48,000 nucleotides of DNA from Minisyncoccota bacterium. Lineage in GTDB: Bacteria; Patescibacteriota; Minisyncoccia; Phycocordibacterales; UBA9973. The position numbers and the translations under genes are program-made. Below are positions 1-18,027 of this stretch, one piece after another. Location: the NCBI GenBank assembly GCA_041663005.1, contig JBAZRK010000001.1, positions 288,734-336,733 on the forward strand, written 5' to 3'. A model generated the notes under the pieces. It was not told where the DNA came from. It searched no databases and saw only the letters and a program-made list of their open reading frames with translations. Within the stretch, counting starts at the first letter, position 1, and each line of letters begins with the position of its first letter.

Positions 1-1071
1 TAAATGAAAACTTATCGTGTTCATTTCCTCAAGCGACACGTCGCCCACAGGCGCTAAGGTGAACGTAAGTTTGCGTATATCCGGCATATAGATATCCGCG
101 TCCTCATAGCCGGAGACCTTAGCGTCGGCAATTTTCTTAGTAAGTTCGGCTTCGTTAAATAGGAGTCCGTAGAGCGTGCCATTCAATTTAATCGACAGCT
201 CTTCAGTTCCCAGTGGCGAATCCATATTATCTACAGTGAAGGCCACCGCGTTCGGCCAAAGAATAAATCCGGGAGGAATCTGACCTAGAGCTTGCTTATA
301 CAATTTATCCTTAAGAGTTTTTTCAAGCTCTGTCAGAGCGGACTGTTTTTCTGCTTCGCTTGCTACAAGCGTCGTACCTACGAAACCACCGGTTATAGAA
401 GTTCCTGGCTTCGACAAAACTTTAAACTTGTCGTACTTGGGTGTTCCTTTAAACCCGATAATTTGAAAATCTATGGGCCCGCTATTGTACTCTTCTCCGG
501 CTTCACTAGCGTAAATTTCTACTTCAACGGAGCCCGGGGCACCGCCAGTCTTCATCCCTGGCACTGTGACTACCTTTCTTGTTTTATAAATTTTTCCGTT
601 GGAGCCGGATAGTCGGGTATCAATGTCGAGCCGCTGGGGAGCAGAGCTAAAGGAATTGAAAATTACCGCGGTGCCACTAGCCTTTTGTGACAATTCTTTT
701 TCTTCCGTAGCGGAGAGCTTTTGGTCCTCCTCGCCGGAAATCACCACCAGGTCGAAAAGTAGCGCTCCGGTCTCTAGAGTTTTCGTCGCTCGGAAATCTT
801 CATCCAAAGTTACCTTTTCTATCTTAGGGTAGACCAACACGTGCGCTTTCTCCATTAAAAACGATATCGCTATCAAGAGAAACGTAATAGAAAAAATGGC
901 GACAGTCCAGAGCATATAACGTGACCTATTCTGTGAAGGACTAGCTTTATGTACAGGCTCGGCAAAAACCCTAGCCGGTTCAGACTGTCTTTGCACTGGA
1001 GGAACCTTGACCGAAACTTTGCGGTCAAGATTTTTTCTCTTAATCATGTCTTCCAAGAAAGGCTTAGACAT
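1..1071 (-). CDS. Partial membrane-anchored protein running off the window edge; resembles the baseplate-J-like protein that follows the FtsA-like gene in Parcubacteria
   Basis: Missing from the ORF track because its stop lies outside the window. ATG at 1071, 2 nt after the upstream stop. The codons I translated (1071-421 and 60-1) are open: MSKPFLEDMIKRK..YMLWTVAIFSITFLLIAISFLM (one TM)..KASGTAVIFNSFSSAPQRLDIDTRL..VTVPG..PGSVEVEIYASEAGEEYN. Family label is from recall. Confidence 0.65.
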   Translation of the reverse strand, partial: MSKPFLEDMIKRKNLDRKVSVKVPPVQRQSEPARVFAEPVHKASPSQNRSRYMLWTVAIFSITFLLIAISFLMEKAHVLVYPKIEKVTLDEDFRATKTLETGALLFDLVVISGEEDQKLSATEEKELSQKASGTAVIFNSFSSAPQRLDIDTRLSGSNGKIYKTRKVVTVPGMKTGGAPGSVEVEIYASEAGEEYNSGPIDFQIIGFKGTPKYDKFKVLSKPGTSITGGFVGTTLVASEAEKQSALTELEKTLKDKLYKQALGQIPPGFILWPNAVAFTVDNMDSPLGTEELSIKLNGTLYGLLFNEAELTKKIADAKVSGYEDADIYMPDIRKLTFTLAPVGDVSLEEMNTISFHL

Positions 1072-6012: not shown

Positions 6013-7152
6013 CTACTTTACGACTCCCCCGCCCAAGCAAACATTGCCATCATAAACCACCACAGACTGTCCTGCCGCCACGAGAACTGGTTTCGCGAAT
6101 ACAATCTCAGCGCTATCTTTGGAAATAATTTTCACCGTACAATCTAAAAATTCTCCGTGGTAGCGAATCTGGGCTGTATAATGTTTTTCTGATTTTGGAA
6201 TTTCGGATATCCAGTTTGTATTTTCTATTCTATAATTCGTTAGAATATTAGAATTGGAAATATTTCTGTTTTGCGATACAACTAAAATATTTTTCTTTAG
6301 GTCTTTACTTATTATGTAATAAGGCCCATCAGTCGGAAGCTTTTTGGTAATAGTAAAACCGTGCCTTTCTCCCAAAGTATGGAAGACGACACCATCATGA
6401 AACCCTATCACCTCTCCGATCTCATTCACCACTTTTCCTTTTTTTTCTTTAATATAGTGTTTCAAAAATTCTTTCAGGTCGATGGAGCCCAAGAAACAAA
6501 TACCCTGGCTGTCTTTTTTCTCAGCCACCGGAAGTTTGAATTTTTTCGCCAATGTCCTTACTTCAGATTTTTTCAACCTTCCCACGGGAAACAGAATTCG
6601 CTCAAGCTGTTTCTGATTCAGCGTCCATAAGAAATAACTTTGATCTTTAGATGGATCTTTGGCCTTGAAGAGCCTCGTCGGGAAATTGTTTTTCGAACGG
6701 TTGACGTTGCTCTGCAGAAAATCCTGAGAAAAAATATTTCCCGATGAGGCTTGCGTATAGTGCCCCGTCGCCACATAGTCTGCGCCCATAGCGATAGCTT
6801 TTTTCAGGAACGCCCCGAATTTCACCTCTTTATTACACATTACATCAGGGTTCGGAGTACGCCCCGCCTTATACTCACGAATCATATAATCAGCAACTTC
6901 ATTTTTATACACGTCTTCAAGGTCAAAAGTGAGAAACGGAATGTCCAAATGCGCCGCGACCCGCATAGCGTCACGCCTTTCTTCTTCTTCATTGCATTCG
7001 AGAAAATCCGGGTGCCAGGTTTTAATAAAAACCCCAACAACTTCGTATCCATCTTTTTGAAGTAGAGCTGCAGAAACAGCGGAGTCCACTCCACCAGAAA
7101 GCCCGACAAAAACAGTCTTTCGACCTCGCTTAGTATCTACACCCTTTTTCAT
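6013..7152 (-). CDS. mnmA: tRNA 2-thiouridine(34) synthase MnmA
   Basis: GLSGGVDS, TPNPDVMCNKEVKF, ATGHY, KDQSYFL, KKDSQGICF, GQS. Confidence 0.97.
   Translation of the reverse strand: MKKGVDTKRGRKTVFVGLSGGVDSAVSAALLQKDGYEVVGVFIKTWHPDFLECNEEEERRDAMRVAAHLDIPFLTFDLEDVYKNEVADYMIREYKAGRTPNPDVMCNKEVKFGAFLKKAIAMGADYVATGHYTQASSGNIFSQDFLQSNVNRSKNNFPTRLFKAKDPSKDQSYFLWTLNQKQLERILFPVGRLKKSEVRTLAKKFKLPVAEKKDSQGICFLGSIDLKEFLKHYIKEKKGKVVNEIGEVIGFHDGVVFHTLGERHGFTITKKLPTDGPYYIISKDLKKNILVVSQNRNISNSNILTNYRIENTNWISEIPKSEKHYTAQIRYHGEFLDCTVKIISKDSAEIVFAKPVLVAAGQSVVVYDGNVCLGGGVVK
6671..6751. repeat. 81-bp hairpin element inside the mnmA coding sequence
   Basis: Terminal inverted repeats AGCCTCGTCGGGAAAT (6671-6686) and ATTTCCCGATGAGGCT (6736-6751), 15/16 match. 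Confidence 0.8.
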
Positions 7153-16812: not shown

Positions 16813-16833
16813 ACCCTAATCATACCCCCACAC

Positions 16834-18027
16834 CTATTTAATTTCAAGTTTAGAAATAGGTGTGGGGGCATACCACTTTTTTAGTTTTTGCAAAATTTGC
16901 CCGAGGGCCTTAATAACATAATCAATATCTTGTTTCTTGGTATCTGCGCCGAGCGAGAAACGTAATGCTCCGATCTCGGGGTCAGCATCAGGGCGAATAG
17001 CTTTTATAACATACGAACCTTCGGCGCGAGAACTTTTACAAGCGCTCTTCGAAGAGGCCATTATTCCCTTTGCTGAAAGTTCTATGACGAGAAGGTCGCT
17101 TGGAATTTTCGGAAATGTCACACTCATGTTGTTAGGTAATCGATTTTCCAAATCGCCGTTTATAATGAATTTCGGACGTCCAACGTCCGAAATTCGGACG
17201 TCCAACGTCCGAAAGAAATAATCACGGAGTTTAATTACACGTCTAGCTTCTTTTTCTCTAACTTTTTGCGCCACACTTAACGCGCTAGCAAATTCTAAGA
17301 TTGCTTTCAGATTTTCCGTACCGGGACGAAGTCCCCGCTCTTGGTCCCCGCCGCCGAAAATGTTTTGAATTTCAACCGACTTTTTCTTAAGGAGTACGCC
17401 AACTCGTCCGGAGCCTGAGATTTTCGAGCCCGACAAAGAAAGCATATCTACCCCAAGCTTTTCTATGTTTAAATCCAAATAGTTTACTGCCTGCACGGCG
17501 TCAGTATGAAAATAAATATTATTTCTGTTGTTTGTTTTTTTATAGTGCCTAATTTCTTTGGCAATTTCTTTTATCGGCTGGATTGTACCTATCTCATTGT
17601 TGGCATACATTACCGACACAAGGACGGTATTTTTTTTAATCGCTTTTTTAATTTTTTTAGAATCTACAATCCCGTTTTCTTCTACGGGCACAATTGTAAT
17701 CTCTGCCAGCTTTCTTTTCTCTAGTAGTTTATAAGTTTCCAAAACGGAAGGGTGCTCTATGTTTGTCGTAATAATATGCGGAAGCTGGGTAAAGTTTTTC
17801 TGCATCTGCGAAGCTAAGACAACTCCCTGAATCGCCAAATTGTTACTCTCTGTGCCCCCACTGGTAAAAATAATTTCCTCAGCTCGTGCACCTAAAATTG
17901 TGGCCACTTCGTGGCGAGCCTTTTCGAGTTTTCGTTTCGCAGAAATGCCTATTTCGTGGATGGAGCTTGGGTTCGGGGTCGCCGAAGCAGCGTAGTCCAG
18001 ATATATATATTTCATTGATTTTGGCAT
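16834..18027 (-). CDS. iscS: Cysteine desulfurase (IscS/NifS, group I)
   Basis: IYLDYAA, IFTSGGTESNN, IEHPSV, FHTDAVQ, SLSGSK, LRPGTEN, SSKSAC. Start placed at MPKSMKY (18027). Confidence 0.93.
   Translation of the reverse strand: MPKSMKYIYLDYAASATPNPSSIHEIGISAKRKLEKARHEVATILGARAEEIIFTSGGTESNNLAIQGVVLASQMQKNFTQLPHIITTNIEHPSVLETYKLLEKRKLAEITIVPVEENGIVDSKKIKKAIKKNTVLVSVMYANNEIGTIQPIKEIAKEIRHYKKTNNRNNIYFHTDAVQAVNYLDLNIEKLGVDMLSLSGSKISGSGRVGVLLKKKSVEIQNIFGGGDQERGLRPGTENLKAILEFASALSVAQKVREKEARRVIKLRDYFFRTLDVRISDVGRPKFIINGDLENRLPNNMSVTFPKIPSDLLVIELSAKGIMASSKSACKSSRAEGSYVIKAIRPDADPEIGALRFSLGADTKKQDIDYVIKALGQILQKLKKWYAPTPISKLEIK
17171..17213. repeat. Two tandem copies of the 21-nt palindrome TTCGGACGT-CCA-ACGTCCGAA inside iscS
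   Basis: Copies at 17171-17191 and 17193-17213; perfect 9-bp arms. Confidence 0.95.

What the first reader, a model, noticed from the sequence alone, without database searches (positions are those of the whole stretch)
6671..6751. 81-bp inverted-repeat element translated in frame inside mnmA
Seen: 16-bp terminal inverted repeats (15/16) enclose an 81-bp (27-codon) segment encoding ASSGNIFSQDFLQSNVNRSKNNFPTRL between ATGHY and KDQSYF. That loop is about 17 residues longer than in E. coli MnmA as I recall it. Established: Rickettsia palindromic elements insert in frame into surface loops of proteins. Inference: a MITE/RPE-like element creating new protein sequence in a conserved tRNA-modification enzyme.
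Basis: partly seen in the sequence, partly recalled or inferred. Interest (0 to 1): 0.68.

Follow-up and report, generated by a model that had tools for sequence, protein, structure and literature searches.

The report
In-frame palindromic repeat inside mnmA
The 81-bp hairpin inside the tRNA-thiolation gene mnmA of this tiny groundwater (Nomurabacteria/CPR) bacterium is one copy of a small selfish DNA repeat that sits, always in frame, in surface loops of essential genes, much like the palindromic elements of Rickettsia; its conserved middle part appears to be copied between gene-specific hairpins.

Summary
Arms 6671-6694 and 6728-6751 pair at 21/24, and the 16-nt ends at 15/16. They enclose a 33-nt core. 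The unit adds 27 codons (A135-L161) to MnmA.

The reading as an RPE-like element is supported, with amendments.
- The genome holds four copies: mnmA, tgt, leuS and the CCA-adding enzyme gene. All are in frame and in sense orientation.
- A looser core pattern finds 32 copies in 19 of 212 species of the genus. It finds none in 281 other genera of the class and none in viral contigs.
- 31 copies lie in 13 recurrent loop "slots" of housekeeping genes. All are sense, and two reading frames are used. One copy is intergenic, just after a tRNA gene.
- The conserved part is the core, not the terminal repeats. The arms co-vary: 22 of 22 pairs show double changes.
- Arms cluster by host gene and cores by genome. 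This suggests the cores are copied or converted between slots.
- Orthologous MnmA loops are either empty (15 aa) or hold unrelated hairpins.
- A confident AlphaFold model (pLDDT 93) shows the insert as a low-confidence extension of a surface beta-hairpin.

Translation, the mobilising enzyme and any function remain inferred.

The parts
6013..7152 (-). mnmA (tRNA 2-thiouridine(34) synthase), 379 aa, the host gene
   Evidence: ORF. Pfam tRNA_Me_trans, tRNA_Me_trans_M and tRNA_Me_trans_C. E = 4e-86 to E. coli MnmA 2DER. The AF2 model matches 2DEU with TM 0.88-0.91.
6671..6751 (-). Complete 81-nt palindromic element (two arms plus core). It is translated in frame as A135-L161; the codons occupy 6670-6750.
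   Evidence: It is one of 4 copies in the genome and one of 32 in the genus.
6728..6751 (-). 5' arm in the sense direction: AGCCTCATCGGGAAATATTTTTTC (peptide ASSGNIFS). The outer part is specific to the mnmA site; the inner TTTTTTC is shared with other copies.
   Evidence: The arm is orthologous to that of the MnmA copy in L117/P0053, 20/23 identical by my count from the sequences printed. Arms cluster by slot.
6695..6727 (-). Conserved 33-nt core. Sense sequence TCAGGATTTTCTGCAGAGCAACGTCAACCGTTC, peptide QDFLQSNVNR. It holds two mini-hairpins, CAGGAttttCTG and AACGtcaacCGTT.
   Evidence: nhmmer E about 1e-11 for each of the 4 genomic copies. The invariant columns of alignment A1 lie in the core. 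Cores cluster by genome.
6671..6694 (-). 3' arm in the sense direction: GAAAAACAATTTCCCGACGAGGCT (peptide KNNFPTRL).
   Evidence: Pairing covariation across 31 copies.

Best explanation
**What it is.** The 81 bp are one copy of a genus-restricted family of small (about 72-81 nt) non-autonomous palindromic repeats. Each copy has a strongly conserved 27-33-nt core, itself two mini-hairpins, flanked by 20-24-nt complementary arms.

**Shown.**
- Copies sit in frame and in sense orientation in a limited set of loop positions ("slots") of housekeeping genes.
- The arms always pair, but their outer sequence differs from slot to slot.
- The same slots are empty or hold unrelated hairpin inserts in other species.
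- In MnmA the insert lengthens the turn of a surface beta-hairpin in the catalytic domain.

**Inferred.**
- The element is transcribed and translated as a floppy 27-residue loop that the enzyme tolerates. It persists as selfish or near-neutral DNA. The sense strand is stop-free in all three frames, whereas the antisense strand has stops in three frames (common variant) or two (this genome's variant). The length is a multiple of three, and only loop sites survive selection.
- Spread works at the DNA level, through the hairpin or cruciform. Whole elements with canonical arms insert into loops. In addition, the core is copied or gene-converted between existing hairpins within a genome, so cores stay alike within a genome while arms are inherited with the host gene.
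- Arm complementarity is kept either by selection for the hairpin or by intrastrand templated repair.

The enzyme responsible is unknown.
For: **Copies and distribution**
- Four genomic copies share the core at 85-94% identity, in mnmA, tgt, leuS and the CCA-enzyme gene. All are in the same orientation and frame (host identities).
- The genus holds 32 copies in 19 of 212 genomes, with 0 hits for the reversed-pattern control. There are none in 281 other genera and none in viral contigs.
- 31 of the 32 copies lie in ORFs, all in sense orientation. By my count of the peptides printed read QDFLLRNVN and 8 read SGFPATQRQP.

**Arms and cores**
- All 22 arm pairs show changes on both sides. There are 183 double-change cells against 70 +/- 7 in shuffles (0 of 500 as high) and 55-123 in the slid controls.
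- Core distance is 0.086 for same-genome, different-slot pairs against 0.120 for same-slot, different-genome pairs (permutation p = 0.011).
- Arm distance is 0.395 within a slot against 0.595 otherwise (0 of 5000 permutations as low).

**Silent sites**
- The element is better conserved at silent sites than its host gene. Against P0053, third-position identity is 15/20 in the element and 102/245 in the rest of the gene. Other pairs with a usable element alignment give 0.62-0.80 against 0.43-0.53.

**Empty and differently filled sites**
- The MnmA loop is 15 aa in P0029, P0045, P0049, P0090, P0115 and P0117, and it holds unrelated hairpins in most other species.
- The same pattern holds for tgt and leuS.
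- One homologue (P0019, locus L115) has the holder stem without the core.

**Genome and structure**
- The genome has 73 long hairpins against 3-11 in triplet shuffles.
- The AF2 model has pLDDT 93 and pTM 0.89. Confidence over the insert falls to 58-86, against 97-98 on either side.
Against: - There is no RNA or protein evidence. Only DNA metagenomes hold the locus, so translation is inferred from frame and stop statistics.
- No mobilising gene was found. Y1/RAYT-type transposase genes occur in 14 of 19 carrier genomes against 148 of 212 overall, which is no association.
- No target-site duplication or precise empty-versus-filled pair between near-identical strains was seen.
- The MnmA tree is star-like, with 37 of 59 branches unresolved. 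A single ancient insertion in mnmA followed by losses cannot be excluded.
- Silent-site conservation of the core could also mean a host function.
- Only 18 same-genome pairs support the clustering of cores by genome.
Confidence: 0.78

Rival explanations
1. The hairpin is a host regulatory RNA or DNA structure, kept because it is useful. It might be an RNase III or mRNA-stability site, a translational pause that aids folding, or a feedback operator for tRNA-handling enzymes. On this view it is not selfish DNA.
For: - Silent sites of the element are more conserved than those of the host gene.
- Pairing is maintained by compensatory changes.
- Many hosts act on tRNA: MnmA, Tgt, LeuRS, the CCA enzyme, PheS/T, TsaD and TrmD.
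- One intergenic copy looks like a terminator after tRNA-Phe.
Against: - Only 19 of 212 species have the core, and each in a different subset of genes.
- Orthologous sites are empty or hold unrelated sequences.
- Hosts also include LigA, UvrC, MurC and YchF.
- The bias toward tRNA enzymes is shared by all hairpin families in this small genome, so it is not specific to this core.
Confidence: 0.1
2. The inserted peptide (QDFLxxNVN with flanks) is an adaptive protein module, for example a docking or RNA-binding loop recruited into several tRNA enzymes. The DNA palindrome would be incidental.
For: - The same frame is used in 23 of the 31 genic copies.
- The model shows a short helix at residues 143-148.
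Against: - Eight copies are read in another frame and give an unrelated peptide, SGFPATQRQP. The CCA-enzyme slot is read in frame 0 in this genome and in frame +1 in L099.
- Conservation is at the nucleotide level, including third codon positions.
- The insert has low model confidence.
- Presence is patchy across species.
Confidence: 0.05
3. The element is removed before or during translation, by intron-like excision or ribosomal bypass, so the mature protein lacks it.
For: - A stable hairpin brings the two flanks together.
- CPR bacteria are known for introns in rRNA genes (own knowledge).
Against: - All 31 genic copies, and all other hairpin inserts seen in the mnmA, tgt and leuS loops, keep the frame and lack stops. 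This would not be required if they were removed.
- Antisense copies, which would carry stops, are never seen in genes.
- No Rfam family matches.
Confidence: 0.03

Closest known systems
Rickettsia palindromic elements (RPE-1 to RPE-10; Ogata et al. 2000, as summarised in PMC10969869)
   Same: Both are multi-copy palindromic repeats inserted in frame into unrelated housekeeping genes. Each family encodes a conserved peptide, is apparently tolerated in surface loops, occurs in a reduced genome, and has no known mobilising enzyme.
   Different: - This element is about half the size: 72-81 nt against about 150 bp.
- Copy number is very low, 1-5 per genome.
- It occurs in a different phylum.
- Conservation is concentrated in the loop core, while the outer arms are site-specific and co-vary.
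- The same loop positions are reused by many unrelated hairpin families.
- Sequence similarity to RPEs was not tested.
Bacterial MITEs (e.g. Correia, ERIC, RUP; review PMC10969869)
   Same: Both are small, non-autonomous, able to form hairpins, repeated, and sometimes intragenic with in-frame fusions.
   Different: MITEs are defined by terminal inverted repeats shared among copies and matching a parent IS, and by target-site duplications. Here the termini are the least conserved part, and no duplication or parent IS was found.
REP elements and their RAYT (Y1 HUH) transposases
   Same: Both are short hairpin repeats in a genome that also encodes Y1_Tnp genes. Structure matters more than sequence in the stem.
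   Different: - REPs are extragenic, 20-40 nt, and co-occur with a cognate RAYT.
- This family is almost entirely intragenic.
- Its presence is not associated with Y1_Tnp genes.
[quoted passage not shown]
   Same: Both are long inverted repeats inside protein-coding sequence that are transcribed and translated. They are a compromise between DNA hairpin and protein.
   Different: In Nematomorpha both arms encode conserved parts of the native protein and there is no shared mobile core. Here the hairpin is extra sequence added to a loop and belongs to a repeat family.

Membership tests
RPE-like in-frame palindromic repeats (functional class) | Several copies of one sequence family in the genome | tested here: met
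   There are 4 copies in the 690-kb genome, each at nhmmer E about 1e-11, and 32 copies in 19 genomes of the genus.
RPE-like in-frame palindromic repeats (functional class) | Palindromic, able to form a hairpin | tested here: met
   24-nt arms at 88% complementarity, fold z = -4.2. 73.6% of arm cells are paired across 31 copies, against 49.6% in shuffles.
RPE-like in-frame palindromic repeats (functional class) | Inserted in frame in unrelated ORFs, giving a family-specific peptide | tested here: met
   31 of 32 copies are in ORFs, across 13 host-gene slots, and read as QDFLLRNVN or SGFPATQRQP.
RPE-like in-frame palindromic repeats (functional class) | Orthologous sites without the element | tested here: met
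   15-aa MnmA loops occur in L039, L048, P0029, P0045, P0090 and P0117. Empty tgt and leuS loops were also seen.
Rickettsia RPE families proper | Sequence homology to RPE-1..10 | not tested
   No RPE sequences were compared. The element differs in phylum and in size (81 nt against about 150 bp), so I claim only that it works like an RPE.
MITE | Terminal inverted repeats conserved among copies | tested here: not met
   The outer arm pairs (columns 8-19 with 73-84) show 4-6 pair types each and no dominant one. Only the inner roughly 10 pairs have a dominant type. Arms cluster by host slot.
MITE | Target-site duplication and a parent IS with matching ends | tested here: inconclusive
   No direct repeat is evident at the ends in the aligned copies or against empty loops. 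The relatives are too diverged to fix exact boundaries, and no systematic IS search was done.
REP/RAYT system | Co-occurrence with a cognate Y1 (RAYT) transposase gene | tested here: not met
   PF01797 is present in 14 of 19 carrier genomes against 148 of 212 overall. Carrier G035 has none.
Intron or other excised element | No constraint on frame or stops; match to a known ribozyme or intron family | tested here: not met
   All copies keep the frame and lack stops. Rfam gives nothing below E = 0.8, and only a THF match at E = 4.4 over the element.

The most novel reading that the evidence does not exclude
The family is not a transposon in the usual sense but an exchangeable cassette. A 27-33-nt double-hairpin core would be copied, by a structure-directed conversion or insertion process, into the tips of persistent, gene-specific hairpins ("slots") inside essential genes. 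Arms would be inherited vertically with the gene while cores turn over and are homogenised within each genome. That would be a so far undescribed mode of mobility targeted to cruciform or hairpin loops, and a steady source of new loop sequence in essential proteins of CPR bacteria.
Probability: 0.3. Interest if true: 0.8.

Novelty: new variant of a known kind. Interest (0 to 1): 0.55.

Why it matters
- It shows that essential enzymes of ultra-small CPR bacteria carry translated selfish DNA, as Rickettsia proteins do. Loop-length differences in these proteins should therefore not be read as adaptations without checking the DNA.
- The family has low copy number, a sharply conserved core, co-varying arms and a defined set of reused sites. 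This makes it a tractable case for asking how hairpin repeats move without a recognisable transposase.
- The discordance between arms and cores gives a concrete, testable prediction of gene conversion or cassette exchange.
- I found no description of such elements in Patescibacteria in the searchable literature.
- Earlier notes of this scan report similar families in many CPR genomes, so the phenomenon is general rather than peculiar to this window.

Tried and rejected
1. **Exact-core scans.** Scans of genome contigs and metagenome contigs with the AGA variant found only one locus each. The pattern was too narrow, because the middle triplet of the core varies. The looser pattern was then run through the genome search.
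2. **Shallow AlphaFold run.** An alignment of 62 close homologues gave an unusable model (pLDDT 59.9). It was replaced by a diverse alignment.
3. **MnmA tree.** A tree meant to count gains and losses came out star-like, and loop states were not clustered (DFL 7 changes for 8 rows, shuffled mean 7.7). This is inconclusive on one origin versus many.
4. **Y1_Tnp/RAYT association.** None was found.
5. **Arms as a reverse copy of the host flank** (lead e1-4842479). In the mnmA, iscS and leuS slots the pairing sometimes runs into host-like residues. The canonical arms are clearly part of the element, and the empty orthologues are too diverged to show direction. Unresolved.
6. **tRNA-enzyme specificity of the core.** Rejected. 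Other hairpin families in this genome sit in TsaD, PheT and TrmD as well as PolA and PurH, host names read from the ORF translations and not checked against Pfam. This core also occurs in LigA, UvrC, MurC and YchF elsewhere.
7. **RNA evidence.** No RNA runs hold the locus.
8. **Population variants lacking the insert.** A joint 6649-6757 in other contigs of the metagenomes comes from diverged relatives (85% likeness, intervening sequence unknown) and is not an empty allele.
9. **Rfam.** No family matches.

Full report
**Observation.**
- mnmA is the 379-aa ORF at 6013-7152 on the minus strand. Pfam finds the three MnmA domains, and the protein matches E. coli MnmA (PDB 2DER) at E = 4e-86.
- Inside it, 6671-6686 and 6736-6751 are complementary at 15 of 16 positions. 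The pairing extends to 24-nt arms (6671-6694 and 6728-6751, 88%) around a 33-nt centre.
- The sense RNA folds at -30.2 kcal/mol, z = -4.2, and none of 200 shuffles folds as well.
- The quoted peptide is encoded by 6670-6750(-), one base off the repeat.
- The loop is 17 residues longer than in E. coli. In 87 diverse MnmA representatives the loop is most often 19-20 residues; here it is 36.
- Contigs from two groundwater metagenomes of different studies carry the region without a difference. A near-identical protein comes from another assembly. The insert is therefore real.

**It is a repeat.**
- The window lies in a 690-kb, 43% G+C genome of a Nomurabacteria/Paceibacteria (CPR) bacterium.
- A search of the whole genome finds three more places that share the central 35 nt at 85-94% identity, each at nhmmer E about 1e-11.
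- All four copies lie inside long ORFs, in the same orientation and frame, and read (S/A)(Q/K)DFLQSNV(N/S)(H/R)S.
- The hosts are MnmA, queuine tRNA-ribosyltransferase, leucyl-tRNA synthetase and the CCA-adding enzyme.
- The flanking arms differ between the copies, but each pair of arms is complementary.

**Distribution.**
- The middle triplet of the core varies (AGA, TAC, TTC, CTT). An exact pattern therefore found almost nothing outside this genome.
- The pattern CAGGAYTTYCTGCNNNGCAACGTCAACC with up to two mismatches finds 32 copies in 19 of 212 genomes of the genus, 1-5 per genome. The reversed-pattern control finds none.
- It finds nothing in 281 other genera of the class and nothing in viral contigs.
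- Of the 32 copies, 31 are inside ORFs, and all of these are in sense orientation.
- By my count of those outputs, 23 copies are read as QDFLLRNVN and 8 in the next frame as SGFPATQRQP.
- The antisense strand of the common variant has stops in all three frames. This genome's AGA variant leaves one antisense frame open. This follows directly from the sequence and explains the orientation bias by selection.
- The hosts form 13 recurrent slots: MnmA, Tgt, LeuRS, CCA enzyme, class-V cysteine desulfurase, PheS, PheT, TsaD, TrmD, YchF, LigA, UvrC and a Mur ligase.
- PheT and TsaD were named from the flanking peptides and were not checked against Pfam.
- The CCA-enzyme slot is read in frame 0 here and in frame +1 in another species.
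- One copy is intergenic. It lies directly after tRNA-Phe, in a 25-bp A/T stem followed by a run of T.

**Anatomy.**
- A gapless alignment of 31 copies (A1) shows that the invariant columns lie in the core.
- All 22 arm pairs show changes on both sides. There are 183 double-change cells against 70 +/- 7 in shuffles (0 of 500 as high) and 55-123 when the partner columns are slid.
- The inner roughly 10 pairs have one dominant type. The outer pairs have many types.
- Many copies in different genes share an extended consensus that includes the arms: GCCTCGCCTGATGCTTTTGC-core-GCAAAAGCATACAGGCTCGGC.
- The mnmA, tgt and cysteine-desulfurase copies have arms specific to their site.

**Arms follow the gene, cores follow the genome.**
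- Core distance is lower between copies in different genes of one genome (0.086) than between copies at the same site in different genomes (0.120). The permutation test gives p = 0.011 for genome and 0.47 for slot.
- Arm distance is lower within a slot (0.395 against 0.595; 0 of 5000 permutations as low) and shows no signal for genome (p = 0.38).
- A concrete case: the arms of our mnmA copy are 20/23 identical to those of the MnmA copy in L117 (P0053), by my count. That copy's core belongs to another subfamily (GATCTC...GTCGACC).
- The core of our mnmA copy carries the AGA variant found in the other three copies of this genome.
- This is the reverse of what vertical descent of whole elements predicts. 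It points to copying or conversion of cores within genomes.
- Only 18 same-genome pairs underlie the core result, so it is suggestive rather than proven.

**The mnmA site in relatives.**
- In 25 species of the genus the GHY..KDQ loop ranges from 15 to 51 residues. Most of the long loops fold into long, near-perfect hairpins of unrelated sequence, with z as low as -9.2. The 15-22-residue loops do not.
- Among 62 close homologues, 8 carry this core at the same site, 7 are empty, and the rest carry other families.
- Several other families share the inner stem and loop-closing bases (TTTT(C/G)C-TCAG ... CRTTCG-(A/C)AAAA) with this one.
- One homologue (P0019, L115) has that holder without any core. 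On the MnmA tree it is sister to a homologue whose similar holder is filled by a different core.
- The tgt and leuS loops behave in the same way.
- The MnmA tree is too poorly resolved to count gains and losses.

**Constraint.**
- Against P0053, the element is 80% identical in nucleotides (67/84) and 15/20 at third positions of identical residues. The rest of the gene gives 67% and 102/245.
- Other pairs with a usable element alignment give 0.62-0.80 against 0.43-0.53.
- The element is therefore either younger than the genes around it (transfer or conversion) or constrained at the nucleotide level.

**Protein context.**
- With a diverse alignment, AlphaFold gives a confident model (pLDDT 93.0, pTM 0.89). 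It matches the MnmA crystal structures at TM 0.88-0.91 and rmsd 2.0 A.
- Strands 134-137 and 159-162 extend the native beta-hairpin, which corresponds to E. coli RRADVDGKSRLL.
- Residues 141-160 have block pLDDT of 58 and 73, against 97-98 on either side.
- This fits a flexible surface protrusion. Whether it faces the tRNA was not tested.

**Genome background.**
- The genome has 73 hairpins with stems of 14 bp or more, against 3-11 in triplet shuffles. 29 of them lie in ORFs of at least 120 residues.
- Other families sit in genes I read from the ORF translations as TsaD, PheT, TrmD, PolA, PurH and the cysteine desulfurase. These names were not checked against Pfam.
- The tRNA-enzyme bias of the four copies is therefore not specific to this core.

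**Mechanism and limits.**
- No mobilising gene was identified. Y1/RAYT transposase genes are common in the genus (148 of 212 genomes) and are not enriched in carriers (14 of 19).
- No RNA data exist for this organism.
- I conclude with good confidence that this is an RPE-like repeat translated in frame.
- With lower confidence (about 0.3), I propose that the core moves as a cassette between persistent hairpins.

**Literature.**
- Searches found RPE descriptions for Rickettsia and coding palindromes in Nematomorpha mitochondria.
- Nothing was found on such elements in Patescibacteria.
- Earlier notes of this scan describe similar families in many CPR genomes. I treated these as leads only.

Noticed in passing
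window 17170-17214 (minus-strand ORF; G000 C1:305903-305947): A 22-nt palindrome (TTTCGGACGTCCAACGTCCGAA, 86%) lies in frame in a 435-aa ORF. The ORF aligns with the class-V cysteine desulfurase hosts of other species, and the peptide reads ...DVRISDVGRPK... The palindrome belongs to a family (ATTCGGACGTTGGACGTCCGAAT) with about 7 copies in the genome, some in a PurH-like ORF and other ORFs. In five other species the same position of this enzyme holds the DFL core read in the other frame.
   Followed up: partly
window 16822-16871: An intergenic hairpin of the family ATACCCCCACACCTATTT (18-nt arms, 94%). At least 8 copies occur genome-wide, all outside long ORFs.
   Followed up: no
G000 C1:27838-27904 (outside the window): The tgt gene carries a second, unrelated in-frame hairpin (17-bp stem, 33-nt loop) 7 nt upstream of its copy of the DFL element. 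Together the two make the Tgt loop about 50 residues longer than in empty orthologues.
   Followed up: partly
L096:1479-1560 (G168): The only intergenic copy of the core sits 6 nt after tRNA-Phe(GAA), in a 25-bp A/T stem followed by a run of T, like a terminator. The core can therefore occupy hairpins outside genes.
   Followed up: partly
L115:501-1571 (protein P0019): This MnmA homologue has the holder stem and loop-closing bases (AAATGCTTTT|TCTCAGTCC|CAAAAGTATTT) without any core. It is either an empty cassette site or a clean 27-nt deletion.
   Followed up: partly
G000 C1:95719-98556 (leuS, outside the window): The LeuRS fragment gives alpha/beta-hydrolase Pfam hits (Abhydrolase_6 at E = 1.2e-9, Ser_hydrolase) upstream of the editing domain. 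This may be a hydrolase domain nested in LeuRS.
   Followed up: no
mnmA orthologues L021-L048, around residue 296-305 of the window's protein: A second hypervariable site lies after VSQ(D/N)(K/R)N. It carries inserts of up to about 30 residues in relatives, for example ...VKEGVGGGNSKNHHLALKGTPPQKGG..., a cassette also seen in Tgt of other species. The window's MnmA has no insert there.
   Followed up: no
genus-wide: Y1_Tnp (IS200/RAYT-like) genes are present in 148 of 212 genomes of this genus. Some genomes of only 0.5-1 Mb have up to 11 matches.
   Followed up: no
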